64,000 nt of DNA from Dehalococcoidia bacterium (GTDB taxonomy: Bacteria > Chloroflexota > Dehalococcoidia > Lucifugimonadales > UBA3495): the NCBI GenBank assembly GCA_965216425.1, contig CBDCFV010000004.1, positions 121,144 to 185,143 of the forward strand. The letters run 5' to 3'. The notes beneath the pieces are model-generated. The model did not search any database. It had not been told where the DNA came from and saw only the letters and a program-made list of their open reading frames with translations. Position 1 is the first letter of the stretch; every line of letters starts with the position of its first letter. Below, one piece after another: positions 25,895 through 59,342 of the stretch. The position numbers and the translations under genes were made by a program.

Positions 25895-25897
25895 TAG

Positions 25898-28675: not shown

Positions 28676-28751
28676 TGGTGGCTCCGTTCAGACGTGGAAA
28701 TATCTCTTATACCGTGTACTACCGGGTGTTCAACCTTTCTTGTTTGTTCCC

Positions 28752-31571: not shown

Positions 31572-31573
31572 GG

Positions 31574-41956: not shown

Positions 41957-41969
41957 GGGGTGCAGCAGG

Positions 41970-44788: not shown

Positions 44789-45310
44789 TTACAATCTCTT
44801 CAGGATTAGCGTTGCGAAGGCGAGAACCACCATTTGCAGGCTGGTATTGAGCTTTCGTTCGCAGTTCTTCCAGAGCCGGCGGCACTTCTCCAGCCAGGCG
44901 AAAGACCGCTCCACCACCCATCTCTTCGGCAGCACCACGAAGGTGTGCAGTTCGTTGCGTTTCACCACTTCCACCGCGGCTCCCAACAAGCTTCGCACCC
45001 CAGCAGCAAAGGGCTTCCCGGTGTAGCCCCCATCCACCAGCACGTTCTGCACCTGGTTGAGGCCATCCCGGTGCCGGTCAAACATCGCCAAGGCCCCGGC
45101 CCGGTCGGTCACGTTGGCCGTGGTTATGTGGATCGCGTGGGGCAACCCCTGCGTGTCCACCGCGATGTGGCGCTTGATTCCGGACACCTTCTTGCCCGCG
45201 TCATAGCCCTTGTTCCCGGCGCTGTCAGTGTTCTTCACGCTCTGGGAGTCCACGATACAGAAGCTGGTCCGCTCTTTCCGTCCATTGCTTTGCCGGGCCT
45301 CGCCAACCAA
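44789..45310 (-). CDS. IS5 transposase orfB (DDE), +1 frame relative to orfA
   Basis: Same protein as 8466..8987. By coordinate arithmetic the frame is +1 relative to orfA. Loss of one A from the A8 run would fuse the two ORFs. Confidence 0.85.
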   Translation of the reverse strand: MVGEARQSNGRKERTSFCIVDSQSVKNTDSAGNKGYDAGKKVSGIKRHIAVDTQGLPHAIHITTANVTDRAGALAMFDRHRDGLNQVQNVLVDGGYTGKPFAAGVRSLLGAAVEVVKRNELHTFVVLPKRWVVERSFAWLEKCRRLWKNCERKLNTSLQMVVLAFATLILKRL

Positions 45311-45581
45311 TTTTTTTTAAGACCTGCTCCAGAATGGAATCCTCATCCGGGCCGGGCCGCTCGCTCCATTGCCGAAAATACTTGTAGCAGGTGCGCCAAT
45401 CGGGGAAGTCCGCAGGCAGCATGCGCCACTGGCAGCCGCTTTTCAGGAGGTACAACACCCCGCAGAAAACGTCGTACAGGTCCACGGTGCGGGGCTTGGT
45501 CCGGCGCCGGACCGACTCCAGCGTCGGCAGAATCCGGGCGAATTGCTCCCGGCTGATGTTGCTGGGATAGGAATGAGACAT
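45225..45581 (-). CDS. IS5 transposase orfA
   Basis: 118 aa. MSHSYPSNISREQFARILPTLE...GCQWRMLP...YKYFRQW. Ends after the A8 run. Confidence 0.85.
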   Translation of the reverse strand: MSHSYPSNISREQFARILPTLESVRRRTKPRTVDLYDVFCGVLYLLKSGCQWRMLPADFPDWRTCYKYFRQWSERPGPDEDSILEQVLKKIGWRGPAKQWTERADQLLYRGLPEREEH

Positions 45582-46821
45582 GCTTACCCCTCCCTTGGTA
45601 ATAGTCTCAACTTAACGTATTCCAAAGATCGTCAACAGGTTCTAAGAAATGCTACCATCGCCAACGCGATTTTTTCGAAGTCTAACTTGGCTGGTGTCCA
45701 TTTCGGTGGCACAAACCCGTCGTCAGCCGTGCTTTTCTCAGAGGTTGAAGTGCCCAAACAACCGTTTGTGCACGAGGCCGAGATCCAGAGTATCGATCAA
45801 CTGTTGGGGGTAGTCAGACGCCTCAGGGCTGCTTACGATGCCGAACAGCCCGAACTTGGAATAACGCTCTACTTTAGAGGGGAACCTAGATGGGGGGACG
45901 CTGACGGCGATTGGACTCTTAGTCCTTCCGTGAAACGCGGCGGCTTCGATCCATATGAGAGCCAAATGCTAGTGGATCTAATGTCGTTGCATCCTGCGGA
46001 GTTTGCTGCTGAGCAATCAGCCCTATCAAAGTGGGTATTAGCTCAGCATCATTTGCTTAAGACTCGATTTATGGATGTTACAAAAAACCCGTTGGTAGCA
46101 CTCTTTTTCGCCTCAGAGACGGATACGGAGGCTACTGGCAAACTCCACATATTCGCAGTACCCCAAACAATGATCAAAGCCTTTAACAGCGATACGGTAA
46201 GTGTAATATCGAACTATGCGAGGCTTCCAAAACGTGAGCAACAAATGCTCATAGGCAACGTCAGTGGCGACGTGATAATCGGCCAAGACTATCCATCCGT
46301 GATGGAGAAACTCTGTCAACTAATTCAAGAGGAGAAACCTGGATTTGTGCAGCGCATAGAATTGCCTGACCTTTTCAGAGTTTTTCTGGTTGAGCCGCAA
46401 TATTCTTCTGAGCGCATTCGCGCACAAGCCGGAGCGGTTTTGGCATCTGCATACCATGATAGGTTTGAACGGATGCATGTGGGAAAAGTGCAAAATATGA
46501 ACGTCTATGGCCACTATACTTTGTCGATTCCACCGGAAGAGAACAAGAAACGGTTCCTTGATGATCTTAGGTTACTCAATGTTACCCGGCAAACGTTGTT
46601 TCCTGGAATTGACGAATCGGCAAAGGAAATAGAGCAGAGATATTCGAGGTTGCCGTAAAGCCCCGCTAGTGGTTTCCAGATATCAGCCAGCTTGGTGCCA
46701 ATCTAGCGGGTCCTCGTTGGAGTGAACGAAGGTCTTTCACAATATCCGATTTCCGACCACCTTCTTAATAACCCGGATCTGTGTCGGCGTACACGATGTG
46801 GGGCATTATGTGAGGGTCTAA

Positions 46822-47712
46822 GGGGTGTCGTCAAAAGAGTTTGCTCCAGATCATCACTGCCCGGAGTTGGCAGGCGGCCAAGTATGACGCTGTCCTCTTG
46901 GCATAACGGGTCGCTATCCCGCGCCACTGCTTGAACTCCAAGAACCCGTTCTCCACCAAGTGCCTCAATTTGTACAGTGCCCGGTCATAGCCCCGCTTTT
47001 CCCTCCGGTTGCTTTTGGGCGGTATCACCGGGTCCATTCCCAATTCCCGGACAGTGGCTATGGTCGCATTGGTGTCATAGGCTTTGTCCGCCAGCAGGTA
47101 CTCCGCTTCGATACCCTCAATCAAGGGCACCGCCAAGGAGCAGTCGGCCGCCGTGCCTTCGGTCACCGCCAGCCTTACCGGCATTCCGTGAGAGTCCACT
47201 GCCAGAGCCTGCCCCGGCGTAGGCCGGGGTGCAGCTTGCTGTTCAGCCCCCTTTTGTGCGGGCAATGGCCTGGCTTCCGCCCAGGGCTCCGGCGCTGTGG
47301 GGATGGGCCTTGATATAGCTGGCGTCAATCATCAGCCACTCAAAATCAGGGTCATCAATCACCGCCTCCAACAGTCCGGCCCACACGCCCCGATCCCGCC
47401 AGCGGCAGAAGCCTTTAGCCCCCCGGCTTGACCGGGAGGGCCGGTGGGCATTCTTCCAGTCTCCGTAGTCCGGGGGCAGATCGCGCCAAGGAGCACCGGT
47501 GCGCAGAATCCAGCACACGGCGTCGATAAACCGCCGGTTGTCCTGGGCCGGTCGGCCTCTCTTGCCCTCTCCCCCGGGCAAATGCGGCTTCAACTGCTTC
47601 CAAACGTCCTCGGTCATATCGTGGCGCCGGTGCGCTGCCGTCATACCCCCACCTCCCACACTCTCCCCATTTCCAGCAATTTACCACCTTATCATTGTTT
47701 TGACGACACCCC
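46822..47712 (-). mobile_element. Second IS5-family element
   Basis: Inverted ends GGGGTGTCGTCAAAA / TTTTGACGACACCCC. Abuts MITE family 1 copy 4. Confidence 0.8.
46831..47659 (-). pseudogene. IS5-family transposase in two frames
   Basis: ORF 47243..47659 (RFIDAVCWILRTGAPWRDLP...WLMIDASYIKAH) and ORF 46831..47328 (LADKAYD...RHLVENGFLEFKQWRGIATRY). Contains an extra 30-nt hairpin segment at 47411-47440. Confidence 0.7.
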
Positions 47713-47865
47713 CTAGTACTACAACGACGCGTTATGAGAAAACACGCTCAGGTCTTCTTCTTCAGCTACTGACCGTTCATCACGGGAGACTCGCACTCGT
47801 TCGTTGCCAGCTTCAAAATCCGCCCACGAGTTACCTTGTAGGATAACGCGTCGTTGTAGTACTAG
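47713..47865 (-). mobile_element. MITE family 1, copy 4
   Basis: Exact reverse complement of 7509..7661. Confidence 0.9.
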
Positions 47866-47994
47866 TACCGTTTCCAGCTAGATTTGTTGATACTGGAAAG
47901 CTGCCTCTAACTCTGGATTCCTGCTTGCGCGGCAATGACTAACAGGTGTAACAAATATCCGGTATAAGGCATATTCAAGTGGAAACGGTACTAG
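47862..47994. mobile_element. MITE family 3 (133 bp)
   Basis: Inverted ends CTAGTACCGTTTCCA / TGGAAACGGTACTAG. Shares its left CTAG with the preceding MITE. Confidence 0.7.
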
Positions 47995-48267
47995 CAAGTG
48001 CAGGTTCTGCAGGCCGTGGATATAGCAATACTGGTTCACCACGGCCAGCGGATCGAATCGAGGCCGCATCTCGCGGCGGCCGGATAGTTGGATGGTCGGG
48101 CAAGAGGGCGGTCAAGCGCCGGCGGATTTTTTGGCCTCACCCTGGCCCTCTCCCTCAAGGGAGAGGGAGAATTAGAAGGGTTTGGAACGCTGCCGCCCTT
48201 GATGGCGTTGCGTGGGCCGGTTTGAGATAATCCTCCGGTGGGGCAAGGACTATCGAGAGGAAAGAGC

Positions 48268-48498
48268 GTGAGGACTGCGAACATCACCATCAAGGTGGAC
48301 GAGTCGGCGGCGAGGGCTTTTGTCGAGGCTTCTCCCCACGAACAGCAGAAACTGCAGATTCTGCTCAGCCTTCGACTTCAGGAACTGACGACTACTGAAG
48401 GCAAGTCGTTGCAGGCAGTCATGGATGTGATCGGCAGTGCGGCGGAGGCTCGGGGACTGACGCCGGAGATTCTGGAGACACTCTTGCGCGACGAGTAA
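48268..48498 (+). CDS. Putative antitoxin
   Basis: GTG start after GAGAGGAAAGAG. Small acidic protein. Its stop overlaps the following PIN remnant. Confidence 0.4.
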   Translation: MRTANITIKVDESAARAFVEASPHEQQKLQILLSLRLQELTTTEGKSLQAVMDVIGSAAEARGLTPEILETLLRDE

Positions 48499-48508
48499 TG
48501 TTCGGGCG

Positions 48509-48987
48509 GTGCTGGATACCAACGTCGAGATCAGCGCAGCGTTGTTGCCGCAGTCCCGCCACGGCGGGCGTTCGACCAAGTCCTAGAGCACGGCACATCG
48601 CTCATCTCTCGTGCCACGCTGGCGGAGCTGAACGAAGTCCTCCGACGACCCCGGTTCGACAGGTACCTGAGAGAGGAGGAGCGCCTGGAATTCCAGGCGT
48701 CAGTGGTGAGGGAATCGGATCTGGTGGAAGTGACCTCTGTTGTGTCAGTGTGCCGCGATCCCAAGGGCGACGAGTTCTTGGAATTGACTTTGAGTGGCGA
48801 CTACGACCTTCTGTCGTTGCATCCGTTTCGCGGTATTGCCATCCTCTCTCCGCAGGACTTTGTTACCGAACGTGAAAGCCCCGTGTATCCTGCATCCGAT
48901 GGCGGCTCCCTTGTAGTCGCTTTGGCTATTTGGCCCAATGTACGGGCGGCAGTGGTGACACTGCCGCCTTTCTCTTTGGTGGCCTAG
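48509..48987 (+). pseudogene. PIN_3-type toxin, frameshifted
   Basis: VLDTNVEISAALLPQ, then in another frame ISRATLAELNEVLRRPRFDRY...VCRDPKGDEFLELTL...GIAILSPQDFV. The segment normally between ELTL and LL appears deleted. Confidence 0.55.
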
Positions 48988-49283
48988 TCCTCTCCCATGG
49001 ACGCGATGCGCTCCGCGATCTGGTCGGGGGTTAGGTCTTCGATGTGGGTGGAGATGGACCACTGGTTGCCGTGGGGGTCGGTGATACGGGCGAGGCGGTC
49101 GCTGTAGAAATGGTCGGCGGGCTCGGCTATGGAGGTGGCTCCGGCGGCTATTGCCTGGGCGTAGACGGCGTCGCAGTCGGGGACGTAGAGGTGGATGAGG
49201 CTGCTGGTGGGCGGGTACTCGGGCGGCAGGGCGCCGTCGATCTCGACCTCGGCGTGGCCGATGCCGCCCTGGGGCATGGGCAT
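48984..49283 (-). pseudogene. VOC-family protein, N-terminally truncated
   Basis: GGIGHAEVEIDG...YSDRLARITDPHGNQWSISTH is the C-terminal half of a glyoxalase-fold protein. Confidence 0.5.
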
Positions 49284-49351
49284 TCGGACGCGTGTGTGAA
49301 GTAGGGCTGGTGCCGGCCTCAGCTCATCTTGCCTATACGAGTCTGTCGGCG

Positions 49352-50050
49352 CTAATGTGCCGAGGTGTCGATCAGCGATATGAGACGGTTGGTGACAGCC
49401 TGCATGTGTTCTGGGTGGGTTTCGCCGGCTGGGGTCAGGTGGCGTTGGGTCGTATCTATGGAGCGTACGCGGTGTAGGAGGACTGAAGCTACTTGCTGGC
49501 TGTCCCGGATGATCATGGGTACTGCGACCGGTGAACTGGGAGCTCTCTCTGCGTACTCGATGTCCGCCGCCACTGCCATGTTGTTTCCGGCGTTGTAGTC
49601 TATGACCAGGATCGGGCTGGCGAGGTCCTGGCCCCGGGTGTCTTCGAGATGGAGATCCCAGATGGTTCCTGCGGAGATTTGGAACGTGCCCTGAATCGTT
49701 TCTATCTGCCCTGGGGCGTGTTGGTGCGCCAGTCTCTGGGCGATGGACAGGATTACGGAGTTCATTTCATCCGGTGATGCCCTGGCGATGAGATCTCCCA
49801 ACAGTCCTTGGTGAACAGACTTGATTTGTCTGGTGGACGCCCAAGAGTCAGCTTCCTCGATACGGATGTGGTGCATGCGAAACCTGACGTCGGGCATGGC
49901 CGTGGACATCGGCACGGTTATGCAGAGTTCGAGTTGCCGGTTGATCAGGTCGTTGCTGATGACGAGGGCTGGCCGGTTGTCCGAAAGTTCGGCCCCGATA
50001 ACGGGGCCGTAGTCGTACCAGTGGACGTTTCCTCTGAGTGCACCGGGCAT
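49352..50050 (-). CDS. Tandem double MazF/PemK-like toxin-fold protein
   Basis: Domain 1: RGNVHWYDYGPVIGAELSDNRPALVISND...TVPMST...TRQIKSV. Domain 2: AGTIWDLHLEDTRGQDLASPILVIDYN...AVPMII...HRVRSID. Confidence 0.65.
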   Translation of the reverse strand: MPGALRGNVHWYDYGPVIGAELSDNRPALVISNDLINRQLELCITVPMSTAMPDVRFRMHHIRIEEADSWASTRQIKSVHQGLLGDLIARASPDEMNSVILSIAQRLAHQHAPGQIETIQGTFQISAGTIWDLHLEDTRGQDLASPILVIDYNAGNNMAVAADIEYAERAPSSPVAVPMIIRDSQQVASVLLHRVRSIDTTQRHLTPAGETHPEHMQAVTNRLISLIDTSAH

Positions 50051-50064
50051 GGGTCTGTCCTTGG

Positions 50065-50625
50065 TCAGGTGAAGTTGGCGAAGCGCAGGTCCGTCTCCCG
50101 TTCCTCCGGAGTCTGCTTGAAGTCGGCAAAGTCGGGTTTTGGCATTGTCCGGCTCTGGTGGAGCAGGTGGGCTCCTTGAGACACGTCGTGGATTTCCAAC
50201 CAGGCGCAGCAGGCCACCACCATGCGGTCGGGCAGGTCGGTTTCGTCCAGCAGTTTAAGCAGGCGGGTACAGCCTATTTCCATGAACCACTGCTTGGCGA
50301 TTGTGTCGGGGGAGGCTCCCTCCGGGGCGCCTTGGGCGACAAGGTCTCTGATTTGTGCTCTCGCAGGGGCGTCTAGGAGCTTTTCAAAGACTGCGTTGAC
50401 CTGTCTCAGATGATCGGTTGTGAAGTCCCACGGGGAGGATTCGAGCAGCGCAAGACGGTCGTCCGGGTCTACTTGGAGCAGAGCGTTTATGCGCTCCCTT
50501 GAGTCTTCCGTGGCGCATTTCCGCGCTTCCGGGTTGCCCGGTGCCGCGCGGAAATATTCGGCCCCGGGGAGGGCGTCAATTGGACTCGGCTGGGCTTGTG
50601 ACGTCGTCATTGTGTGTCCTGGCAT
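50065..50625 (-). CDS. Hypothetical 186-aa protein upstream of the double MazF (candidate antitoxin)
   Basis: Ends 14 nt before the MazF ATG, with AAGGA in between. No MazE/AbrB motif recognised. Confidence 0.45.
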   Translation of the reverse strand: MPGHTMTTSQAQPSPIDALPGAEYFRAAPGNPEARKCATEDSRERINALLQVDPDDRLALLESSPWDFTTDHLRQVNAVFEKLLDAPARAQIRDLVAQGAPEGASPDTIAKQWFMEIGCTRLLKLLDETDLPDRMVVACCAWLEIHDVSQGAHLLHQSRTMPKPDFADFKQTPEERETDLRFANFT

Positions 50626-51080
50626 GTTGCACTTTCTTGGGGTACTTCATTTTATCGTTGTGTTCCTTTGGTTGCCACCTCCGGTCTCCGTCCATATCTC
50701 AGGGTGCCGGAGGTTCTGGGTAGCTACGCCAATTCTCGGATGTCGCTATGGTGCCACGTTTTTCGGGCCCTTGGTGCCTTTCTGATGGTTCTGAGGCTAC
50801 CGTCATCCTCCACAACCGGTGGTGATGGTGCGCGTTGCGCTGCGAGTGTCAGGCATGTGGGATTGCTCCTAGCAGGCATGGTCGTCATCTAGGTGGAGGT
50901 GTTTTGAACCCGCTGAATGGTGGGGAACCCGGCGGCTTGGGCGGCGAGCTGTACCATCTCCTGCCACCTGGCTTGGTGGGCCCGGCTCAGGATGCCGGCC
51001 TTCTCGTGGCAGAAGGAGCAGGTCCCGGCGGCTGATTTCAGGAGGTTGGAGAAGGGCATGGGTGTTACCGTGGATAGTGT

Positions 51081-52954
51081 TCAGATCTGGTGGATGTCCG
51101 ATAGCAGGTTCAGCTGGTCGACAATTCTGACTGTCTTAACGCTTACAGTACAGACTCGCTGCAGCAGGTCGATTACCTGCTCTTTGTAGTCGGCGAAGCG
51201 GTAGGTGTTGAAACGGTCGCGGACCGTGGGGTCTCGGGGCGTTTTCTCTTTGTACTGGTCCAGGACCCACTCCAGGGCGGAGCGGCTCCCCAGCCGGTAC
51301 TCCCATGCCTCCTCGGGCACACCGGTCAGCATCGTCTTGCCGTCTAGGATGATGGCACCGCGGGTTTTGTCGGCCTTTAGAGCCGCCTTACCCGGGTCAC
51401 CGTCCTTTTCCACCCGCTCCAGTGCGAACGGCTCGGCGGACTCAAACCCGATGTGCAGGTCCAGCAGCCGTTGGCCCATCTCGGCCCAGTGGAGGAAATC
51501 GGGGTACAGGGGTAGGCGGGGGAACTCCTGCAGCAGGTCCACGGCGTAGTCGTGGCGGTACACGGGGTCGTGAAGCACGGCGTAGGTGTAGGCGAAAATC
51601 TGCTCGGCGGTGATGCCGTCGTCGCCGGCGATGCGGGGGTAGTCATCGCCCCACTCGGCGCGGTATCGGTCGTTGATTCGGCGGATGGCCCAATCGGTGA
51701 TGTTGCTGACGCGCTGGCCGTTCTCGCTGTACCGGTAGCGGGGGAGGCATTGGGTATCACCCGTGAAGTGGTAGTCCACCAGCTTATCGGACGCTAACAC
51801 GTAGAAGTCCTTGCCATTTACGCAGAAACAAATCACCTTGTTGGCCCATGCCGTCTCATGCGGGAACAACTCCGGCATTTGGTATCGTCGGTGAGTGATA
51901 ATTGGCGCGTAATAGCAGTGCTTGGCAACGAAGGGCCTGAATGAAGCCTCGATCGTATTGCGAGATTCAAACAGGATACCGTTCCCCTTTACCAAGTGGT
52001 CTTCCAACTCGCTGGTCCATTTGATTGTTCTATCGACCCAATCCCGTATTGAACCTCTATCCGGCTTTTCAATGGCATACCGCTTCATTTCCCTCTGGTA
52101 TGCCTCGCAAAAAGCCATCACCTTGCTAGTCAGAACATTGATGTCGGAATCGTAAACCCATTCGTCCCGAGCGGTCAGGATCCCCAATGAATATAGCCCG
52201 AATATAGCCCGTTCTTCATCCACAGACTTGGCCAGCTTGGTCTGTCTGTCTGCCAAGAGCATCAATCGTTCGAAGTTGCTATTGGACTGGTTGAGCCAGT
52301 GATTTTTGACGTCGGGCGTGATGCTCTCGAACGGGATGTTTTCCAGACCGGTTTCCTTCAGATAAGCCTGCTTGTCCTTTGCGACCTCGGCATCCTCCCT
52401 GTTGGCGTAGTGGATGTTGCACTCCCCCAGCCTGGACTTTTCCCTCACAAAGAATGCTACGGCAACGCCCGTCTGTACCCCGAAGACGTTATGGGTGGTT
52501 CCCGAAATCTTCGGGTTGCGCCGAACGTCCGATCCCAGGTCCATGACGTAAATGTCGGTGAACTCGCTGAACGCCACCTGCCGGAACCCGTCGTCCTGAC
52601 GAGCTTCCAAGTAGGCGCGGTTGGTGATGAAGGCGATGATCCCGTCGTCCGCCAGACGGTCCGAAGCCCAGCGGATGAACCGCTTGTACATGTCGTACTG
52701 CTTGGTCTTCTGGGCGGTGCTGCTGGCGATGTAGGTCTCCCGGATTCGCCGGTCTATCTCAGGGTACTCTCGGTTCTTGTTGTTGTCGTTTTCGTTCTGC
52801 TGGTTGGCATTGTAGGGCGGGTTGCCGATGATGACGCTGATGGGCTTCTCGTTCTGCTCCTGGATGCGGATCCAGTTCTCCTCTGAGAGGCCGCCGAGGT
52901 TGAAGGCGCCCTGGCGCGTGACCGCACCGCCGGTGGCTCCCTGCTGCTGCCAGT
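51081..52954 (-). pseudogene. C-terminal 625 codons of an N6-adenine methyltransferase with a type-ISP-like C-terminal domain
   Basis: VIIGNPPYNANQQ (motif IV). EQIFAYTYAVLHDPVYRHDYAVDLLQEFPRLPLYPDF resembles the type ISP C-terminal specificity domain. The 5' part is cut off by IS630-C at 52955. Confidence 0.8.
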
Positions 52955-53153
52955 CTAGTAGTCCAACATCTTTGAAATGAGTACTGACCAAGTGTATTCT
53001 ACCAAGCATAGGGAGAAGATGATTGGGACGTGTGAGGAGGGGATGGCGATGAAGAGATACCGGGTCAAGCTGAGTGCGGAGGAGCGGCAGGAATTGAAGA
53101 CATTGGTGTCCCGTGGCCGGGTGGCGGCTTACAAGCAGACCCACGGGCGCATC

Positions 53154-53176
53154 CCCCGTTTTCACGAGGGCAGGCT
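53154..53176 (+). repeat. 23-nt GC-hairpin micro-insertion, instance 1
   Basis: CCCCGTTTTCACGAGGGCAGGCT lies between codons ATC and CTG of the transposase. Confidence 0.75.
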
Positions 53177-53520
53177 CTGTTGCTTAGCGATGAAGCGCGG
53201 AAAGACGGAGGCCTGACGGACGAAGAGGTTGCCCGGTCCCTCGAGATCGCCAGCGCCACAGTGGAACGGATACGCCGCCGTTGCGTGGAGGAAGGGATCG
53301 AAGCGGCCTTGGGGCGTAAGGAGCAACAACGCCGCCGGCCAAAGAAACTGGATGGCGCTGCGGAAGCCCACTTGATTGCGCTGGCCTGCGGGGAACCGCC
53401 ACAGGGCCGGGTAAGTTGGACGCTGAGATTATTGGCGGACCGGCTGGTGGAGTGCGAGATAATGGAGAGCATCCACCCAGAGACGGTGCGCAAGACGCTG
53501 AAAAAAAACGAACTCAAGCC

Positions 53521-53543
53521 CCCGTTCTGCAACGGGGCAGGCT
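53521..53543 (+). repeat. 23-nt GC-hairpin micro-insertion, instance 2
   Basis: CCCGTTCTGCAACGGGGCAGGCT, with the stem CCCCGTT/AACGGGG. Starts 12 nt after the A8 run. Confidence 0.75.
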
Positions 53544-54239
53544 TTGGCTGAAAGAGTGTTGGTGCATCCCGCCGGAAGGCAGTTCGGACTTTGTGTGTGC
53601 CATGGAAGACGTGCTGGAGGTCTACCAGCGTCAATTCGGGGACAATGAGGTGCTGGTGTGCCTGGACGAAACCAGCAAACAGCAGGTGAAGGAAACGCGA
53701 CTGCCGCGCCCGCTCCGCCCCGGATCGGCAGTCGCGTATGATTACGAATACGAGCGCAACGGGGTGAGCAACCTGTTCATGCTGTTTGCGCCGCTGGAAG
53801 GGTGGCGGCGGGTCGGAGTGACGGACCGGCGGACGAAAGTGGACTGGGCGCACCAAGTGAAGAAGTTGGTGGACGAGGACTACCCGGACAAGGACCGGAT
53901 TGTGCTGGTGATGGACAACCTGAACACCCATCATCCGGCCTCATTATACGAGGCGTTCGAGCCTATGGAAGCGCGGCGTATCGCCGAACGTCTGGAGATT
54001 CACTACACCCCCAAGCATGGGAGTTGGCTGGACATGGCTGAAATTGAAATCGGAGTGCTGGCCCGGCAGTGCTTGGACCGCCGGATTCCTGATCAAGAGG
54101 TGCTGCGCCGGGAAGTTGACGCCTGGCAGAACCAGCGCAACCGGGACATGGTGCGAGTGGACTGGCGCTTCACCACCGATGACGCGCGCATCAAGCTGAA
54201 ATCCCTTTACCCAGCAATTCAAAATAGCTGAACTACTAG

Positions 54240-54500
54240 AGGCAATGCGCCGGTTGCGCCAAAGCTCCGGACCACCGGAATCAATAAGACTCGGGACAGT
54301 AGCCCCCGAGCAGCAAAGGTAAGCCCAAAGGAACGTGGCATACCCACTCGCCAAGTCCAACCGCACGGCTCCGCCAGGACTCCACTCTCATTGATGTATG
54401 CGGCCGCCGCCTTCTGACTCCCTGATCACCCCGTCCACATCGACTTTCTCAACAAGACCATCCCACCACCCTTGAGAGAGGTCGGCCAAGAATGCGTAGT
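54240..54500 (-). pseudogene. Possible decayed upstream part of the methyltransferase (motif I region)
   Basis: RLDLASGYATFL is loosely like a motif I. Several frame breaks and no start codon. Confidence 0.25.
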
Positions 54501-54623
54501 ATTGTTCTATCTTTTGGGAATGTGGGCATAAACCTGCTATGGCTAGGCCCCTACTCGGAGAATTGTTTCTTCACTGAGAGGCGCATCTGTCATTTGAGGG
54601 CCGCATCCCCAATGAGCGCGGAT

Positions 54624-57212
54624 TCAGTCCTTATTGTACTCAGTCCTGCATTTTCTAAGCTTATCCCAATCACTCTCAAGGTCGGATACCTTTGGTGGCG
54701 CGCCAAGGGTTGGTAGTGGCTGCGAATGAGCATCTATGTATCTGCAGGCATCTTCAAAGACCGATATAACGGTCGCTATTGTCTGTCCTAGTTTGGAGAT
54801 CTTGATTCTGTTTAATGCCGTAATGCGGACGTTGGGCTGGTATCGTTCTGTTACCTGAGCCAAGACATCATGCTCTACGAAGACCTCGCACCAAGAACGG
54901 ATCAAGGCATAGCCCTCGCGTATGTGGTTAGCCCGCTCCTCACCTGCAGACTTTCTTGCCTTGTCGATCGCGGAACTGACTCGCGTATTCAATGCGGTGA
55001 TGGTATCCCATCGAACCCCGGTGGCAGGGGTAACAGTTCCTTTTCCATTGTCGTCCGTGACCCAATAGAAGGCATAGTGCTCCGGATTCTCAAAGAGAGC
55101 CAAAAGGTTAGTCACGAGTAAAATGTGATGAGTGAACACTACTACCTGATGATCCGAGGCCAAGTCGGCGATGCGCTTGGCTACATCACTTATGCGACGG
55201 TGATCAAGGCTGGAAACAGGGTCATCAAAGATCACTGGAACCGAGTTATCGCTCATTCTGGTCTCGGCGATAAAGTCTGCGATTGCGAGAACTTTTTGCT
55301 CGCCCTCGGAAAGCACTTTCGAAGGGCTATGACCTCCTGCCAACGTTTTCTTCCGTTGGGATTGGCCTAATCTGCCGAAGAATTCCAACTCCAGCTCGGG
55401 TGCCCGTAGTTCCGCACACTCGTTTCGGAATATCTCCTCGAAATTCTCGTTGATCAACTGTTCGCTTGCCTTGTTAGAAAGAACAGTGATATTCCTGCGA
55501 ATGTTCGAAATCGCCTCCCTTTCAGCTCTAAGTTTGTCCTGGCGGCTGGCTACGGCAACGATTTTCTCGACTTCTCCCCACGATTTACTTAGCTCCAGTC
55601 TGGCCTTGAGCTCGAGCAACTCATTCTCTTTCTCCGCCTGAGACTTCTCTTGGTCGGAGTTCTGGGCTCGCAATACTTCAAGTGTATCCTTGACTTCCGA
55701 AAGCCACAGCCCAACTTTTGCTCCGATCTCGGAAATCCTGGGTAGGATGGTCTCGTTGAGCGTAACTTTGTCTGTGAATTGCTTGCGCAGGGTTCCTTCC
55801 AGACTCACCAAGTTGCGAAGTGTTTCCATTTGATCGGTCGGAGCCGGGATCCCGTTGTCCGTTTCTGCGTCCGCGGGTTCGCAAAAAGCCTGGACCGCTG
55901 TAAGCGAACTGTCCTGCACAGGGTTTAGTAGAATCTGGATCGTTGATTCCTGTGCCTCTATGTCTCTGGCTATGTGGCTTTCTAAGTATTCCCTGTACTT
56001 GACGATCAGTTCAAGGGCTTCTGTGCCAAGTAGTTGCCTGCAATAAAGACAACGTGTGTCGTCATGTGCTCCAAGATTCTCCAAATGCCTTCTATATTCC
56101 TGGCCGGAACGAATGAACTCTTCCCACGTCTGTTCCGGTTCAGCGGGAAGGTTAGCAGCGGCGAAGAGACTTTCACGCAGAGCTGTTTGGTCGCTGTGCA
56201 GTTCGGATAGTCTGGTTAACGCGGCATTGTAATCTTGGAGATTGAAGTTCCCCACAACCGATGTGTAACCAAGAGCTCCTGTTAGAACATTCTGGAATCT
56301 GGATTTGAGAGATACTTGCTGTCCAACCACGTCAGCGCGAAGTGCTGCGATAGTGCTTTCCAACTCTTTTGCTTGCTCAGCCGCGTTATCTGGTAAGCCC
56401 GATAACTTCTGCAACTCCTGCAAGTCTGTTGCCGGACCGAGCGATTCGATGTAAGGGTAGATGGAAGAACTACTGTCAAAGCGGCTGAGTAAGGATGAGC
56501 TGTCAGAGTTCAGTGTCTGACGCTCTATTTCGATGCGCTCCGCGATGTTTTGTGCTTCGAGATTAACACGGTCGAAAAAAGCAAGGGAAGCTGGCCTGTA
56601 TGTGTATCGCAAGTCAGAATCGACGTGCAAATTGGCCGAAGGGTTATCGAAAATCGACATTAGAGTAAATGGTGGCTGAGCCTGTTCCCCGTTCCACTTG
56701 ATGGAGAGATCGGTCCCACCCAAACAGTAGTCGATATCCGCGGAAAGTGGTGGCGGATCACCTTCGAGATTAACATCGGGAAGAATGTCTTCTGCACTGC
56801 GACTCCCTGCCATCCTTTTGAGGATACGGGTGTATCCGGTCTTTCCCGCCCCGTTTTCCCCGAACAGAAGAGTTAACCCGTGACCGAAATCGATATGCTC
56901 GCCCTCTACAAGGGCATTCACTCCCCTTACATTCGATATACGAGTCAAGTAGAGCGGATCAGGTTGGCTCAAAGGCTGCGCGGGATTGACTATCGGAGAT
57001 TCAACCGGAAGAGTACGTTCGTCAAACGCCTTTTCCTGCAGGAACAACTGGTATATCAGTGCTCGCTCACTCTCAGAGAGCTGGCTACTGGAACCAAGGA
57101 CTTGTCGCACGATTCGACGAATCCACTCATCGCTTTTGTTCGCCCATTGAGCTAGAGAGCTTCTCGGATCTTCGTTGAGGGTCTGATCGTCTGGTTCCGT
57201 TATTCCATTCAA
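54624..57212 (-). CDS. RloC/PrrC-like AAA_13 ATPase (candidate anticodon nuclease)
   Basis: 862 aa. LLFGENGAGKTGYTRIL (Walker A). A long coiled-coil insert with CLYCRQ (CxxC hook-like). VIFDDPVSSLDHRR (Walker B/D-loop). C-terminal LIRSWCE (R-x3-E) plus His residues. Confidence 0.7.
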   Translation of the reverse strand: MNGITEPDDQTLNEDPRSSLAQWANKSDEWIRRIVRQVLGSSSQLSESERALIYQLFLQEKAFDERTLPVESPIVNPAQPLSQPDPLYLTRISNVRGVNALVEGEHIDFGHGLTLLFGENGAGKTGYTRILKRMAGSRSAEDILPDVNLEGDPPPLSADIDYCLGGTDLSIKWNGEQAQPPFTLMSIFDNPSANLHVDSDLRYTYRPASLAFFDRVNLEAQNIAERIEIERQTLNSDSSSLLSRFDSSSSIYPYIESLGPATDLQELQKLSGLPDNAAEQAKELESTIAALRADVVGQQVSLKSRFQNVLTGALGYTSVVGNFNLQDYNAALTRLSELHSDQTALRESLFAAANLPAEPEQTWEEFIRSGQEYRRHLENLGAHDDTRCLYCRQLLGTEALELIVKYREYLESHIARDIEAQESTIQILLNPVQDSSLTAVQAFCEPADAETDNGIPAPTDQMETLRNLVSLEGTLRKQFTDKVTLNETILPRISEIGAKVGLWLSEVKDTLEVLRAQNSDQEKSQAEKENELLELKARLELSKSWGEVEKIVAVASRQDKLRAEREAISNIRRNITVLSNKASEQLINENFEEIFRNECAELRAPELELEFFGRLGQSQRKKTLAGGHSPSKVLSEGEQKVLAIADFIAETRMSDNSVPVIFDDPVSSLDHRRISDVAKRIADLASDHQVVVFTHHILLVTNLLALFENPEHYAFYWVTDDNGKGTVTPATGVRWDTITALNTRVSSAIDKARKSAGEERANHIREGYALIRSWCEVFVEHDVLAQVTERYQPNVRITALNRIKISKLGQTIATVISVFEDACRYIDAHSQPLPTLGAPPKVSDLESDWDKLRKCRTEYNKD

Positions 57213-57778
57213 AGCGGGTTACTCCTAACCGACTCAATCGGGGACGCACGGCGGTTTCGGACGTTCAAGGCGTCGCTTACAATTGAATTGAGGTTCGTGT
57301 TTGCAGCTTCTGGCTGTCCTGTATATGGTCCCGCTATGAGGACTTGTAGGCGGTCCTGGTCATGGAAAGTCACTACCACTCGTCCTCGGTTAACAGGCGG
57401 CCGCCGCCGCCCAGGACCTCTCTCGAGACGGCAAACTTTGGGCCTGTTCGACCGGTTTCCAGTAGAAATTGCTATCTTAGCCCGCACCCATCGAACGAGT
57501 GGGTGTAAGAGGCCTCCTGAAAGGACGAAAAAATACTCCTCCGAATCTGGGGTGATGGTTTCGAAACACGAACCCAACCCTAGTAGTCCAACATCTTTGA
57601 AATGAGTACTGACCAAGTGTATTCTACCAAGCATAGGGCGAAGATGATTGGGACGTGTGAGGAGGGGATGGCGATGAAGAGATACCGGGTCAAGCTGAGT
57701 GCGGAGGAGCGGCAGGAATTGAGGACATTGGTGTCCCGTGGCCGGGCGGCGGCTTACAAGCAGACCCACGGGCGCATC

Positions 57779-57801
57779 CCCCGTTTTCACGGGGGCAGGC
57801 T
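57779..57801 (+). repeat. 23-nt GC-hairpin micro-insertion, instance 3
   Basis: CCCCGTTTTCACGGGGGCAGGCT at the position orthologous to instance 1. Confidence 0.75.
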
Positions 57802-58144
57802 CTGCTGCTGAGTGATGAGGCCCATGGGGACGGGGCCATGAAGGATGAAGACATTGCCCGGGTTCTCCAGATTGGCCGTGCGACGGTGGAACTGGTGCGC
57901 CGGCGCTGCGTGGAGGAAGGGATTGAGGCGGCACTGGGACGAAAGCGGCAGGTTAACCGGCGTCCGAAGCGGCTGGACGGTCAAGGGGAAGCCCGCCTGA
58001 TTGCCTTGGCCTGCGGAGAACCGCCGGAGGGCCGGGCCGGTTGGACGCTGAAGTTGTTGGCCGACCGGCTGGTCGAATGCGAGATAGTGGCGAGCATCAG
58101 CACTGAAACAGTGCGCCAGACGCTCAAAAAAACGAACTCAAGCC

Positions 58145-58167
58145 CCCGTTCTGCAACGGGGCAGGCT
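58145..58167 (+). repeat. 23-nt GC-hairpin micro-insertion, instance 4
   Basis: CCCGTTCTGCAACGGGGCAGGCT at the position orthologous to instance 2. Confidence 0.75.
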
Positions 58168-58309
58168 CTGGCTGAAAGAGTGTTGGTGCATCCCACCGCA
58201 GGAAAGCGCGGAGTTCGTCTGTGCGATGGAAGACGTGCTGGAAGTCTATCAGCGCCGGTATGGGGACAACGAAGTTCTGGTCTGTCTGGACGAGACCAGC
58301 AAGCAACAG

Positions 58310-58334
58310 AGCCTGCCCTCGGCCACGACCGGGG
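58310..58334 (-). repeat. 25-nt GC-hairpin micro-insertion, instance 5 (inverted)
   Basis: The reverse complement is CCCCGGTCGTGGCCGAGGGCAGGCT. Lies between ..SKQQ and VKETR... Absent from copy 1. Confidence 0.65.
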
Positions 58335-59342
58335 GTGAAAGAGACGCGCCGGCCGCGTCCGGCCCGGCCTGGGGCGGCGGGCTCCTACGATTATGAATAC
58401 GAGCGCAACGGGGTGAGCAACCTTTTCATGCTGTTTGCGCCGCTGGAAGGGTGGCGCCGGGTGGAAGTGACGGACCGGCGCACGAAAGCCGATTGGGCCC
58501 GGGTGGTCAAGCAACTGGTGGACGAGGACTACCCGCACAAGGAGCGTATTGTGCTGGTGATGGACAACTTGAACACCCACCACCCAGCCTCATTGTAGAA
58601 GCCTTTGAACCTGCCGAAGCGCGGCGCATCGCCGAACGGTTGGAGATTCACTACACTCCCAAGCATGGCAGTTGGCTGGATATGGCCGAGATCGAAATCG
58701 GGGTGATGGCCCGGCAATGCCTGGACCGCCGTATTCCCGACCAAAGCGCTCTGCGGCGGGAGGTGGGAGCGTGGCAGCAACAGCGCAACCGGGACGCGAT
58801 ACGGGTGGACTGGCGCTTCACCACCGCGGACGCCCGTATCAAACTGAAGTCCCTGTACCCATCAATACAACACTGACGCACTACTAGGATGATGCTCTTG
58901 AGGCGGTCGGGGTTCGTGCTGCAAAACTGTCGCATATAGCGGTGGTAAGCGGAGTACAGCCCCTCGGCGAGGGTTACGTCCTCGAGCCTGGACAGTCCGT
59001 TGGCCCAGGTGCCCGGAGAGATGTTAAAGCAATTATATAGCCGGAAAGGAATGGCGTAATTGATTTGGCAAACTCGTAGGACCATGACTTTTATGTGTAG
59101 TTACAACATATACAAGTCCAAGAATAGCGACGTATCTCCCTACATTTTTGACACTTTTATATATCATAGAGTATATTGTGCCATCGTTTCCGTATAATAG
59201 TTTGTGTGCAATGCCTGTGGTACCTGCATATATGCCCCTTTATTCAATCACTTCACAGCAATCTTGTAGATTGGCCGCCTTTACTTCCCTTCAGCACAAG
59301 CCCCACTGAGAGCTACTTAATAATCCACAGAGGAGATGTCAC

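What the first reader, a model, noticed from the sequence alone, without database searches (positions are those of the whole stretch)
53154..58334. A 23-25 nt GC-hairpin micro-element recurs inside IS630 transposase genes; removing it restores one intact ORF
Five instances share the form CCCCG-N6-8-CG(A/G)GGG-CAGGCT:
- 53154-53176 and 53521-53543, both in copy 1.
- 57779-57801 and 58145-58167, both in copy 2.
- 58310-58334, in copy 2 and inverted.

In copy 1 the three transposase frames differ by exactly +23 nt at each insert. Deleting both inserts yields a continuous 1143-nt ORF. Its junctions, ..THGRI|LLLSDEA.. and ..NELKP|WLKECWCIPP.., match the uninterrupted IS630-B protein.

The same two inserts sit at orthologous positions in a copy that is visibly diverged at both protein and DNA level. 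The roughly 110-codon segment between them is stop-free in both copies and differs mostly by conservative changes.

In element orientation, two inserts are followed by the same flank, CTGTTGCTT. This hints at target choice or templated copying.

Possible explanations:
- A new ultra-small mobile or templated insertion.
- Inserts tolerated because they are bypassed or removed during expression, by a ribosome hop or recoding.
- An ancestral pseudogene mobilised in trans.
Basis: partly seen in the sequence, partly recalled or inferred. Interest (0 to 1): 0.85.

Follow-up and report, generated by a model that had tools for sequence, protein, structure and literature searches.

The report
Tiny hairpin repeat inside transposase genes
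The 23-25-base inserts are real copies of a widespread, very small hairpin repeat (a 7-bp GC stem plus the fixed tag CAGGCT) that slots seamlessly into hairpin loops and, in this IS-rich genome, into transposase genes; it resembles known REP-type repeats but fails their defining tests and is shared unchanged between bacterial phyla.

Summary
All five inserts are where stated. Deleting the two in copy 1 gives an intact 380-codon IS630 transposase gene.

The inserts are not peculiar to IS630:
- A sixth copy, plus a variant, sits in an IS5 gene of the same window.
- Collection scans found well over 250 further copies, enriched in Dehalococcoidia/Chloroflexota.
- One exact 24-mer, CCCCCGTTTTCACGAGGGCAGGCT, also occurs in Atribacterota.

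Most copies elsewhere lie outside transposase genes, many (26 of 70 distinct A-type contexts) in the apical loop of a larger REP-like palindrome. Filled and empty versions of one site differ by exactly the element, with no target duplication. Insertion is usually just 5' of CTG or YTG.

In the IS630 family, closely related copies exist with and without each insert. Insert-bearing copies keep dN/dS at 0.1-0.25 and have no stops.

Best reading: a REP- or SDR-like micro-repeat carried as a passenger in redundant IS copies. How it moves is inferred (single-strand, hairpin-directed) and no enzyme was found.

Ribosome hopping is not supported. At one site, however, the insert lies 11 nt after the family's slippery A-run and is read through in frame in a relative.

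I rate it a new variant of a known kind, of moderate to high interest.

The parts
52958..54236 (+). IS630-family element, copy 1 ('IS630-C'). It is flanked by TA at 52956-57 and 54237-38, with terminal inverted repeats GTAGTCCAAC / GTAGTTCAGC. It is inserted into a type ISP restriction-modification gene.
   Evidence: Sequence reading. Alignment of the two copies. Pfam DDE_3, HTH_32 and HTH_29 on the rebuilt ORF. Type_ISP_C and Eco57I domains on the interrupted ORF 51081-53165.
53154..53176 (+). Micro-element, site 1, subtype A (CCCCGTTTTCACGAGGGCAGGCT, 23 nt, with a C x A mismatch in the stem). The left boundary is ambiguous by one C.
   Evidence: An exact empty site, gcatc|ctgttg, is present in L164 and L165. 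The same 24-mer, counting the host C, was found 66 times in metagenomes.
53501..53508 (+). A8 run, the slippery site of the family's programmed -1 frameshift. Relatives carry A7 (ctN aaa aaa acg). It lies 11 nt upstream of the site-2 hairpin.
   Evidence: Three-frame translation. Empty relatives L001 and L164 and the window's IS630-B need a -1 shift at this point. More than 44 OrfA clusters end ..KKTNSSLG.
53521..53543 (+). Micro-element, site 2, subtype B (CCCGTTCTGCAACGGGGCAGGCT, 23 nt). Its -1 frame is open and encodes ..RTQAPVLQRGRL..
   Evidence: The empty site aagcc|ttggctg is present in L001, L164, L165, L166 and L167. It is read through in frame in L163/P0006.
57583..58884 (+). IS630-C copy 2, 82% identical to copy 1 overall. 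The first ~240 nt are 99% identical, which marks a recombinant 5' end shared with copy 1. It carries two further 1-nt indels.
   Evidence: mismatch profile.
57779..57801 (+). Micro-element, site 1, subtype A with a perfect stem (CACGGGGG).
58145..58167 (+). Micro-element, site 2, subtype B.
58310..58334 (-). Micro-element, site 3, subtype C (CCCCGGTCGTGGCCGAGGGCAGGCT, 25 nt), inverted relative to the gene.
   Evidence: The same site and subtype occur in L098. The site is empty in copy 1, L063 and L165.
47206..47229 (-). Sixth micro-element, subtype D (CCCCGGCCTACGCCGGGGCAGGCT), inside an IS5-family transposase gene at ..KLH|LAVDSHGMPVR..
   Evidence: The rebuilt protein gives a continuous DDE_Tnp_1 match across the junction.
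47411..47440 (-). Probable variant element in the same IS5 gene: hairpin CCCTCCCGG-TCAAG-CCGGGGGG with tail CTAAAGGC. It lies in frame between ..NAHR and FCRWRDRGVW..
   Evidence: Sequence reading. The DUF4096 match spans the junction after removal. Its relation to the family is inferred only from the TCAAG loop and the AGGC tail.
46831..47659 (-). IS5-family transposase gene that hosts the two elements above. It also has a 1-nt frameshift in a G-run.

Best explanation
**What the inserts are.** They are copies of a family of single-hairpin micro-repeats, 22-25 nt long here. Each has a 7-bp GC-rich stem that starts CCCC(C)G, a 4-6-nt loop and an invariant 3' tag CAGGCT.

**Where the family lives.**
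- It is dispersed in Dehalococcoidia/Chloroflexota and in other sediment and groundwater bacteria.
- Most copies there lie outside transposase genes, and a good fraction sit at the apex of larger REP-type palindromes.
- New copies enter seamlessly. There is no target duplication, the orientation is fixed, and the entry point is usually just 5' of CTG/YTG.

**Why transposase genes here.**
- In the IS-laden lineage of this window, copies have landed in transposase genes of two IS630 subfamilies, IS5 and IS3.
- Frameshifting insertions survive there because IS copies are redundant.
- The inserts are then multiplied as passengers whenever the IS is moved, by its own transposase or by one supplied in trans.
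- Recombination among the many IS copies, and possibly precise loss of inserts, reshuffles filled and empty sites. This is why insert-bearing copies still look selected.

**Shown:** family membership, dispersal, seamless filled/empty pairs, the loop preference, the polymorphism within IS630, and low dN/dS.

**Inferred:** the movement mechanism. I take it to be single-strand, hairpin-directed cutting and joining by a trans-acting enzyme of the HUH/Y1 (RAYT or IS200-like) type. Such a mechanism predicts seamless insertion and excision. The passenger and trans-mobilisation account is also inferred.
For: **The family is real and widespread.**
Of the 80 displayed titles, 35 are Dehalococcoidia or Chloroflexota.
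- The metagenome scan returned 120 loci, also at its limit. They hold the exact A-type 24-mer 66 times and its G variant 25 times.
- These lie in at least 70 distinct flank contexts, on contigs of 32-68% GC.
- The AT-rich carriers are Atribacterota, judged from MetK neighbours.

**Hairpin structure.** The stem covaries, and the predicted folds agree.

**Preference for hairpin loops.**
- 26 of 70 contexts have an adjacent outer stem of at least 5 bp, against 7% in shuffles.
- Empty and filled versions of the same host hairpins both occur:
  - GGACAGGCG-TCT-CGCCTGTC
  - GGATTCCAG-C^CTGCG-CTGGAAT
  - ATTCCCGC-^CTGC-GCGGGAAT

**Seamless polymorphism within IS630-C.**
- Six insertion sites occur among ten copies.
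- L163 and L164, and W2 and L165, are filled/empty sisters at 94-95% identity. They differ by exactly 23, 23 and 25 nt, and the flanks are unchanged.
- L063 and L098 have private sites.

**Other transposase families are hit too.** These are IS5, a second IS630 subfamily and IS3.

**The element is not coding-specific.** The share of elements inside transposase homology is 6/6 in the window, 20/131 in the genome scan, 1/124 in the metagenome scan and 0/31 in viral contigs.

**Population survey of OrfA proteins.**
- All four combinations of filled and empty at sites 1 and 2 occur.
- Filled clusters hold up to 64 member sequences.
- Variants that look like partial deletions also occur.

**Recombination between copies.** Copy 1 carries a 5' end typical of the copy-2 clade.
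Against: - No mobilising gene was found. There was no Y1/RAYT-like ORF by motif in 1.4 Mb of loci, no conserved neighbour gene, and none between element pairs.
- The defining REP tag (GTAG or CGTC) is absent.
- The same subtype at the same site in IS630 clades separated by dS 0.4-0.9 fits neither random re-insertion nor ordinary gene conversion. The inserts differ by only 0-2 nt, and no flank markers were co-converted.
- dN/dS of 0.09-0.25, with no stops in five insert-bearing copies, is lower than expected for dead passengers unless the insertions are recent or the copies stay functional.
- In this window and in roughly 100 kb of related loci the element occurs only inside IS copies. Activity in this particular genome is therefore not shown.
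- An identical 24-mer in two phyla is unusual for REPs, which are normally lineage-specific.
Confidence: 0.6

Rival explanations
1. **Reversible switch.** The inserts are excised precisely at the DNA level at some frequency. Excision restores an active transposase gene. Insert-bearing IS copies are then dormant rather than dead. Selection on revived copies keeps the ORF intact, and only copies with an intact hairpin and tag can be revived.
For: - Filled and empty sisters differ by exactly the element, with identical flanks, at three sites at once (W2 vs L165) and at two sites at once (L163 vs L164).
- dN/dS is 0.20-0.25 between these sisters and 0.09-0.2 between insert-bearing clades, with no stops.
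- The inserts are far better conserved than synonymous sites, with 0-2 differences in 23 nt where pS is about 0.5.
- Seamless excision is what IS200/IS605-type single-strand chemistry does. This is established knowledge, and the parallel is discussed for REPINs in PMC3116915.
Against: - The direction of change, gain or loss, cannot be told from these data.
- No excision intermediate, no same-locus polymorphism and no enzyme were seen.
- After excision the insert is gone. Long-term retention of the same subtype at the same site still needs explaining.
- Variants that look like partial deletions (P0243, P0251, P0269/P0270) suggest ordinary decay.
Confidence: 0.2
2. **Functional recoding or tolerated coding insert.** Insert-bearing genes still make a working transposase.
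- At site 2, slippage on the adjacent A-run, by the ribosome or by RNA polymerase, puts the ribosome in the open frame through the insert. The linker NELKP is replaced by RTQAPVLQRGRL.
- At site 1, translation restarts at the TTG just after the insert, with the insert's GGCAGG acting as a ribosome-binding site.
- The 24-nt versions are simply in frame.
For: - The family uses a -1 shift at A7, 11 nt upstream of site 2.
- In copy 1 the downstream ORF is in the -1 frame, and that frame is open through the insert.
- L163/P0006 (A6 run) reads through the insert as one 349-aa ORF. P0264 does the same.
- The site-4 insert is in frame (MDN-PVSSTGQA-LNTHH) in two lineages that are only 73% identical.
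- dN/dS is low in all segments, including codons 1-37.
- Filled clusters have many members.
Against: - Most filled copies have A7, which puts the downstream ORF at +1, not -1.
- There is no slippery heptamer near site 1, and no sequence change there tracks the filled state.
- The conserved NELKPW motif is lost on read-through.
- Site 4 sits next to a catalytic-region motif.
- A-run lengths come partly from long-read contigs of 4-22x coverage and may hold homopolymer errors.
- No expression data exist.
Confidence: 0.12
3. **Conserved functional motif rather than selfish DNA.** The hairpin plus CAGGCT is a binding or processing site for a widely shared host or mobile-element factor, acting on RNA or DNA. 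It is selected where it sits in intergenic palindromes. Copies in IS genes are by-products.
For: - An exact 24-mer is shared by Atribacterota and Dehalococcoidia, on contigs spanning 32-68% GC.
- The tag is invariant and the stem covaries.
- The variant with a C x A mismatch is commoner than the perfect stem, 66 against 25.
- The apical position on variable outer stems resembles a structured motif with a variable basal helix.
Against: - No Rfam family matches.
- No gene association is conserved.
- Seamless filled/empty polymorphism at many unrelated sites, nested insertion and frame-breaking copies inside genes are the behaviour of mobile DNA.
Confidence: 0.1
4. **Simple inherited lesions.** Inserts 1 and 2 arose once in an ancestral IS630 copy, inactivated it, and were passed on vertically or by trans-mobilisation.
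For: - The same sites and subtypes occur in four clades.
- Insert-bearing copies occur in many members and at different genomic loci.
Against: - Insert-free sisters exist inside each clade at 94-95% identity.
- All four combinations of filled and empty occur.
- dN/dS is 0.09-0.2 at dS 0.4-0.9, with no stops.
- The inserts show almost none of the divergence expected for neutral sequence of that age.
Confidence: 0.05

Closest known systems
REP elements and REPINs mobilised by RAYT (Y1/HUH) transposases; GTAG- and CGTC-tagged REP superfamilies (Di Nocera et al. 2013, PMC3733652; Bertels & Rainey 2011, PMC3116915)
   Same: - Short (20-40 nt) GC-rich palindromic units with a conserved tag at one end.
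- High-copy and dispersed.
- Sometimes nested in other palindromes. T. roseum (as named in the paper) GTAG-23 sits inside CCGSSCC..GGSSCGG.
- Sometimes found inside ORFs.
- Insertion next to or into existing repeats has been described.
   Different: - The tag is CAGGCT (AGCCTG on the other strand), not GTAG or CGTC.
- The unit is a single hairpin, not a doublet.
- No RAYT was found nearby.
- An identical unit is shared across phyla, whereas REPs are usually lineage-specific.
- Here the elements sit in loops of what look like GTAG-type REPs (GTAGGACAGGCG..CGCCTGTCTAT). They are guests of REPs rather than the REPs themselves.
Small dispersed repeats (SDR1-8) of Nostoc punctiforme (Elhai et al. 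2008, Genome Research). Recalled from memory; the paper is cited in PMC3116915 and PMC3733652 but was not readable here.
   Same: - Size of 21-27 nt.
- A shared hairpin supported by compensatory changes.
- Found nested in other repeats and palindromes (HIP1, MITEs, copies of themselves).
- Proposed as the smallest mobile elements.
   Different: - Different sequence and a different phylum. SDRs were reported as confined to a cyanobacterial subgroup.
- The present family spans Chloroflexota, Atribacterota and others, and is documented inside transposase ORFs with exact empty sites.
Rickettsia palindromic elements (RPE), inserted in frame in protein-coding genes (Ogata et al. 2000; as summarised in PMC3733652)
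   Same: Palindromic selfish repeats that survive inside ORFs and are translated as extra peptide segments. Compare site 4 (PVSSTGQA) and the site-2 read-through here.
   Different: - RPEs are about 100-150 nt, in frame and in housekeeping genes.
- The present elements are 22-25 nt, mostly frame-breaking, and seen only in transposase genes.
Mitochondrial GC clusters and 'byp' translational-bypass elements of Magnusiomyces; T4 gene 60 hop (from memory)
   Same: Small GC-rich hairpin inserts inside coding sequence. Their removal restores the ORF.
   Different: - Bypass needs matched take-off and landing codons, and usually a stop or hungry codon at take-off.
- None of these is present at sites 1-3.
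Programmed -1 frameshifting or transcriptional slippage at A-runs in IS630-, IS3- and IS1-family transposases (established knowledge)
   Same: The IS630-C family itself has a two-ORF design with an A7 slippery run at the HTH/DDE junction. Site 2 lies 11 nt downstream, where a stimulatory hairpin would sit.
   Different: The insert is not part of the ancestral signal, because empty copies are the majority. With A7 it puts the DDE ORF in the wrong (+1) frame.

Membership tests
REP / REPIN (RAYT-associated) | Short (about 20-40 nt) imperfect palindrome, repeated and dispersed | tested here: met
   - The unit is 22-25 nt with a 7-bp stem that covaries.
REP / REPIN (RAYT-associated) | Conserved GTAG (or CGTC) tetranucleotide tag at one end of the palindrome | tested here: not met
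   The invariant end is CAGGCT / AGCCTG. Neither GTAG nor CGTC occurs in subtypes A-E. GTAG does occur on the outer host hairpin in Atribacterota, not on the element.
REP / REPIN (RAYT-associated) | Organised mainly as inverted doublets (REPINs) | tested here: not met
   Copies are single hairpins. Paired copies are rare and mostly in the same orientation. One 57-nt tandem array was seen.
REP / REPIN (RAYT-associated) | A cognate RAYT (Y1_Tnp) gene flanked by the repeats | tested here: inconclusive
   No HUH+Y ORF was found by motif in 1.4 Mb. None was found among conserved neighbours or between element pairs. Only windows of 8 kb or less around elements were available, and no whole genome.
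REP / REPIN (RAYT-associated) | Predominantly extragenic | tested here: inconclusive
   - Outside this lineage, few or no copies lie within homology to the six transposase queries used: 1/124 in the metagenome scan and 0/31 in viral contigs. Other genes were not screened.
- In the window 6/6 are in IS genes, and in the genome scan 20/131 are.
- No proper gene calls were available for the loci.
Small dispersed repeats (SDR, Elhai 2008) | 21-27-nt units sharing a hairpin, nested in other repeats, with evidence of recent mobility | tested here: met
   Size, hairpin, nesting in palindrome loops and filled/empty pairs are all shown. This is similarity in behaviour only.
Small dispersed repeats (SDR, Elhai 2008) | Sequence identity with SDR1-8 and restriction to Nostocales-type cyanobacteria | not tested
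The hosts here are Chloroflexota and Atribacterota, so lineage membership is unlikely.
MITE (non-autonomous derivative of an IS) | Terminal inverted repeats matching a parent IS, plus a target-site duplication | tested here: not met
   No target duplication occurs at any of the filled/empty pairs. The element is one hairpin plus an asymmetric tag. The TA duplication belongs to the IS630 host, not to the insert.
IS200/IS605-type single-strand elements (PATE-like) | Oriented insertion next to a short conserved target on one side, no duplication, seamless excision, subterminal hairpin | tested here: inconclusive
   - Oriented, seamless insertion with no duplication, 5' of CTG/YTG, occurs in many cases.
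- CTG is not universal in the unbiased A-type set: cgc 14, ctg 9, cta 6.
- No TnpA was found, and strand bias relative to replication could not be tested.
Translational bypass elements (byp, gene 60) | Matching take-off and landing codons flanking the gap | tested here: not met
   - Site 1: ATC ... GCT|CTG.
- Site 2: CCC or CCT ... GCT|TGG.
- Site 3 is 25 nt and inverted.

No codons match, and read-in continues 8-21 codons before a stop.
Known RNA families (Rfam 15) | Covariance-model match at gathering score | tested here: not met
   There were no hits on the window or on 18 loci beyond two tRNAs. Only chance-level hits appeared in E-value mode around a composite hairpin.

The most novel reading that the evidence does not exclude
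The hairpin-plus-CAGGCT unit is a previously uncharacterised class of ultra-small (22-25 nt) single-hairpin mobile DNA.
- It inserts into and leaves single-stranded hairpin loops seamlessly.
- It is propagated by an unidentified trans-acting enzyme that is itself shared between phyla (Atribacterota, Chloroflexota and others).
- Inside IS630 it works as a reversible, excisable or recodable off-switch. This is why insert-bearing transposase genes remain under purifying selection and keep the same insert at the same site.
Probability: 0.2. Interest if true: 0.85.

Novelty: new variant of a known kind. Interest (0 to 1): 0.6.

Why it matters
**As mobile DNA.** If the element moves as inferred, it is among the smallest mobile DNA units known. 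It is unusual in being sequence-identical across distant phyla. That points to a horizontally shared enzyme, still to be identified, that recognises a 24-nt hairpin.

**As an experimental system.** The exact filled/empty pairs in a prolific IS630 family allow several questions to be tested:
- how such repeats enter and leave DNA;
- whether they silence transposases reversibly;
- whether a hairpin dropped next to a slippery run can rewire programmed frameshifting.

**For annotation.**
- These inserts split transposase genes into two or three spurious ORFs.
- They generate recurrent 'hypothetical' peptides such as ..PRFHEGRL.., ..PPFSRGQA.. and ..SPRSATGQALAERV.. in metagenome annotations of Dehalococcoidia.

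Tried and rejected
- **Ribosome hop.** Rejected by reading the junction codons.
- **CRISPR-like array.** Three hits 57 nt apart in L059 suggested one. It is a tandem repeat with identical 'spacers'.
- **Rfam.** Nothing in gathering mode on the window or on 18 loci, and nothing in E-value mode on a composite hairpin.
- **RAYT/Y1 search.**
  - By motif regex: nothing.
  - By clustering neighbour ORFs: nothing but housekeeping genes.
  - By ORFs between element pairs: nothing but housekeeping and phage genes.
- **Generic 'excision restores a long ORF' test across all loci.** Uninformative, because random positions in this GC-rich DNA already span a median of 108 open codons. Only homology-based cases were kept.
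- **Co-conversion tracts around site 2.** The flanks are equally conserved in empty copies, so they reflect the frameshift signal and the protein, not conversion.
- **Apparent excision footprint in P0086/L166 (..KKTNQALAE..).** It is only a 1-nt deletion in an empty site.
- **B subtype private to IS630 site 2.** False. It also occurs in other palindrome loops (L170, L206, L286).
- **CTG as a universal target.** This was partly an artefact of my first scan pattern (vs 62).
- **Look-ups that failed.**
  - Window proteins and P0001 are not on record in the contig index.
  - The cluster look-up gave no names.
  - A and B subtypes are absent from viral contigs.
  - The sequences are absent from the paper library.
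- **L163 and L164 as one locus.** They are not. Only about 30 nt upstream is shared.

Full report
**1. Checking the observation**

All five inserts are at the stated coordinates. The two site-2 inserts have CGGGG rather than CGRGGG.

The product is a complete IS630-type transposase with HTH_29, HTH_32 and DDE_3 domains.

Copy 2 carries the same two inserts and a third, inverted 25-nt one. It also has two extra 1-nt indels.

Each insert is better described as a 7-bp stem with a 4-6-nt loop followed by CAGGCT. Examples are CCCCCGT-TTTC-ACGGGGG and CCCCGTT-CTGC-AACGGGG.

**2. The element is not confined to IS630**

- A sixth copy, CCCCGGCCTACGCCGGGGCAGGCT, interrupts an IS5-family gene at 47206-47229 (minus strand).
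- A related hairpin with a longer tail lies in frame in the same gene at 47411-47440.
- All six strict copies in the window are inside IS genes. None lies in the other ~60 kb.

**3. A widespread family**

*Collection scans*
- A viral-contig scan gave 42 loci.
Of the 80 titles shown, 35 are Dehalococcoidia or Chloroflexota MAGs.
- A metagenome scan aimed at subtypes A and B also hit its limit at 120 loci.

*The A subtype*
- The exact 24-mer CCCCCGTTTTCACGAGGGCAGGCT occurs 66 times in the metagenome scan, and its perfect-stem variant 25 times.
- These copies lie in at least 70 different flank contexts, on contigs of 32-68% GC.
- The AT-rich carriers are Atribacterota, judged from the MetK gene next to one of them.

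*Structure and prior description*
- Across 42 distinct 25-nt members the stem covaries: pair 6 is GC 13, UA 10, AU 2 and CG 2. No shuffle out of 500 reached the observed score.
- No Rfam family matches.
- No paper in the library contains the sequence.

**4. Where it sits and how it enters**

Outside this lineage the copies are rarely in transposase genes: 1/124 in the metagenome scan and 0/31 in viral contigs. Their neighbours are ordinary housekeeping genes.

In 26 of 70 distinct A-type contexts the element sits at the apex of a larger hairpin, against 7% in shuffles.

Both the empty and the filled form of the same host hairpins are present:

| Host hairpin | Loop when empty | Loop when filled |
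|---|---|---|
| GGACAGGCG … CGCCTGTC | TCT | T[element] |
| GGATTCCAG … CTGGAAT | CCTGCG | C[23 nt]CTGCG |
| ATTCCCGC … GCGGGAAT | CTGC | [24 nt]CTGC |

- The first host, in Atribacterota, carries a GTAG head like a classical REP.
- Insertion is oriented and seamless, and often falls immediately 5' of CTG/YTG.
- CTG is not universal once the bias of my first scan pattern is removed.

**5. Behaviour inside the IS630-C family**

I assembled ten DNA copies from the window, a Dehalococcoidia MAG and ENA contigs. Six insertion sites occur among them.

*Site occupancy (L001 is truncated before site 1, so its state there is unknown)*

| Site | Subtype | Filled in | Scored empty in |
|---|---|---|---|
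| 1 | A | W1, W2, L163, L098, L063 | L164, L165, L166, L167 |
| 2 | B | W1, W2, L163, L098, L063 | L164, L165, L001, L166, L167 |
| 3 | C, inverted | W2, L098 | W1, L063, L165 and the other copies |
| 4 | E, 24 nt, in frame | L063, L167 | all other copies |
| three private sites | – | L063 and L098 | – |

*Sister pairs*
- W2 and L165 are 94% identical and differ at sites 1, 2 and 3.
- L163 and L164 are 95% identical and differ at sites 1 and 2.
- In both pairs the difference is exactly the element. There is no duplication, no footprint and no change in the flanking polymorphisms.

*Selection*
- dN/dS between insert-bearing copies of different clades is 0.09-0.2, at dS 0.4-0.9.
- Between filled/empty sisters it is 0.20-0.25, at dS 0.08-0.11.
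- No copy has an in-frame stop once the inserts are removed.
- The inserts themselves differ by 0-2 nt between clades, although about half of the synonymous sites differ.

*Population survey*
- Among 120 OrfA-type proteins, the canonical state is a two-ORF, insert-free element ending ..KKTNSSLG.
- All four combinations of filled and empty at sites 1 and 2 occur.
- Filled clusters hold up to 64 member sequences.
- Several variants look like partial deletions.

*Recombination*
- Copy 1 carries a 240-nt 5' end typical of the copy-2 clade, which shows recombination between copies.

**6. The frameshift connection**

- This IS630 group naturally needs a -1 shift at ctN-aaa-aaa-acg to fuse its HTH and DDE ORFs. 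This holds for the window's IS630-B, for L001 and L164, and for most OrfA clusters.
- Site 2 lies 11 nt downstream of that run.
- A 23-nt insert displaces the downstream ORF by -1.
- In copy 1 (A8) a -1 slip would read through the insert in an open frame, giving KK(K)RTQAPVLQRGRLWLKECW.
- In L163 (A6) the ORF is continuous without any slip, and was called as the 349-aa protein P0006.
- Most filled copies have A7. That would need a +1 shift, or a transcript lacking one A.
- At site 1 I found no slippery motif. The only evident route is re-initiation at the TTG just after the insert, which would give a protein lacking residues 1-38.
- Classical bypassing is excluded because there are no matching take-off and landing codons.
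- A-run lengths come partly from low-coverage long-read contigs and should be treated with caution.

**7. Other transposase families**

After the inserts are removed, continuous Pfam matches identify three more hosts in Dehalococcoidia MAGs:
- a second IS630 subfamily, with two A-type inserts (L110, L101, L116);
- an IS5, with four inserts (L098);
- an IS3 (rve), in L053 and L049.

In the genome scan 20 of 131 strict elements lie in these few families.

**8. Interpretation**

*Best reading (0.6).* This is a REP- or SDR-like micro-repeat that targets exposed hairpin loops. It survives in redundant IS genes, where it is multiplied as a passenger and reshuffled by recombination.

*Mechanism of movement (inferred).* I infer single-strand, hairpin-directed chemistry of the HUH/Y1 type from four features:
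- the fixed orientation;
- the absence of target duplication;
- the seamless filled/empty pairs;
- the preference for loops.

No enzyme was found.

*What is not explained.*
- The strict pairing of site and subtype across deep IS clades.
- The absence of co-converted flank markers.
- The low dN/dS.

These keep two rivals alive:
- precise, reversible excision (0.2);
- functional recoding or tolerance of the insert (0.12).

A purely functional motif (0.1) and a single inherited lesion (0.05) fit less well.

**9. Comparison with what is known**

- REPs of the GTAG/CGTC superfamilies can be nested in palindromes and can lie inside ORFs (PMC3733652).
- REPINs are thought to be moved by RAYTs through IS200-like chemistry (PMC3116915).
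- Elhai's 21-27-nt SDRs (recalled from memory) behave very similarly.

The present family fails the defining REP tests that I could run. It has the wrong tag, it is not organised as doublets, and no RAYT was seen. I therefore file it as working like these elements, not as a member of them.

Its distinctive points are:
- the CAGGCT tag;
- its position as a guest in the loops of other REPs;
- exact sequence identity across phyla;
- the well-documented filled/empty series inside a transposase gene, next to a programmed frameshift site.

**10. Verdict**

I rate it a new variant of a known kind, with interest 0.6.

Noticed in passing
window 51081-52957 (-) and beyond 54239: IS630-C copy 1 is inserted at a TA inside a type ISP restriction-modification gene (Type_ISP_C and Eco57I methylase domains). 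The listed 694-aa ORF runs from the gene into the IS.
   Followed up: partly
window 19898-36126 and 45369-57212: The window is a defence and mobile-element island. It holds:
- an MmeI-like methylase;
- a UvrD-like helicase;
- a Schlafen AlbA_2 protein;
- an N6_N4 methylase with RE_endonuc and ResIII genes;
- an FRG-domain protein;
- a double MazF/PemK protein;
- an 862-aa AAA_13/SMC-like ATPase (54624-57212) lying exactly between the two IS630-C copies.
   Followed up: partly
window 25919-27021 (-): A third IS630 copy ('IS630-B', about 56% amino-acid identity) has two ORFs. They would be fused by a -1 shift at ctc-aaa-aaa-acg. It carries no micro-element. A fourth, intact and distant IS630 gene is at 311-1450 (-).
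   Followed up: partly
window 7508-7662, 9811-9969, 27745-27900, 47712-47870: A repeat of 153-159 bp occurs four times at 99-100% identity. The last copy abuts the IS5 element, so it may be an IS end or a MITE.
   Followed up: no
window 8125-8999 vs 44777-45646: An 875-bp inverted duplication at 99.3% identity. Its content was not identified. ORFs 7995-8942 and 44834-45556 gave no Pfam hit.
   Followed up: no
window 52958-53200 vs 57583-57825: The first ~240 nt of the two IS630-C copies are 99% identical, against about 80% for the rest. Copy 1's 5' end matches the copy-2/L165 clade rather than its own clade (L163/L164). Copy 1 is therefore a recombinant.
   Followed up: yes
L059 about 5300-5600 (Dehalococcoidia MAG CBDHCU010000007.1): A tandem array of 57-nt units, each carrying an E-type element (CCCCGTATCGAGTACGGGGCAGGCT) plus cgcgggaacgacggttgtgcaagggtctc. 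It looked like a CRISPR array in the hit table but has identical 'spacers'.
   Followed up: partly
L169, L184, L197 and other loci (Atribacterota contigs, 32-37% GC): A 48-nt GC-rich composite, GTAGGACAGGCGT[A-type]CGCCTGTCTAT, recurs in AT-rich intergenic DNA. The same hairpin also occurs empty, with a TCT loop. The outer hairpin has the GTAG head of classical REPs.
   Followed up: partly
proteins P0243, P0251, P0269, P0270, P0292: OrfA variants whose tails read ..KKRGQALAERV.., ..SPRSATLAERV.. or ..KPPFCNGALVERV... They look like partial deletions of the site-2 insert. One possible cause is slippage between AACG repeats. This is inferred from protein sequence only.
   Followed up: no
L001 5147-6482, L163 3322-4711 and 16041-16728: Other parts of the window recur at 82-94% identity on the ENA contigs that carry IS630-C relatives. 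These parts are the 33960-35293 region, the IS21 and the resolvase gene at 41834-42522. The finding points to a shared pool of mobile elements among related organisms.
   Followed up: no
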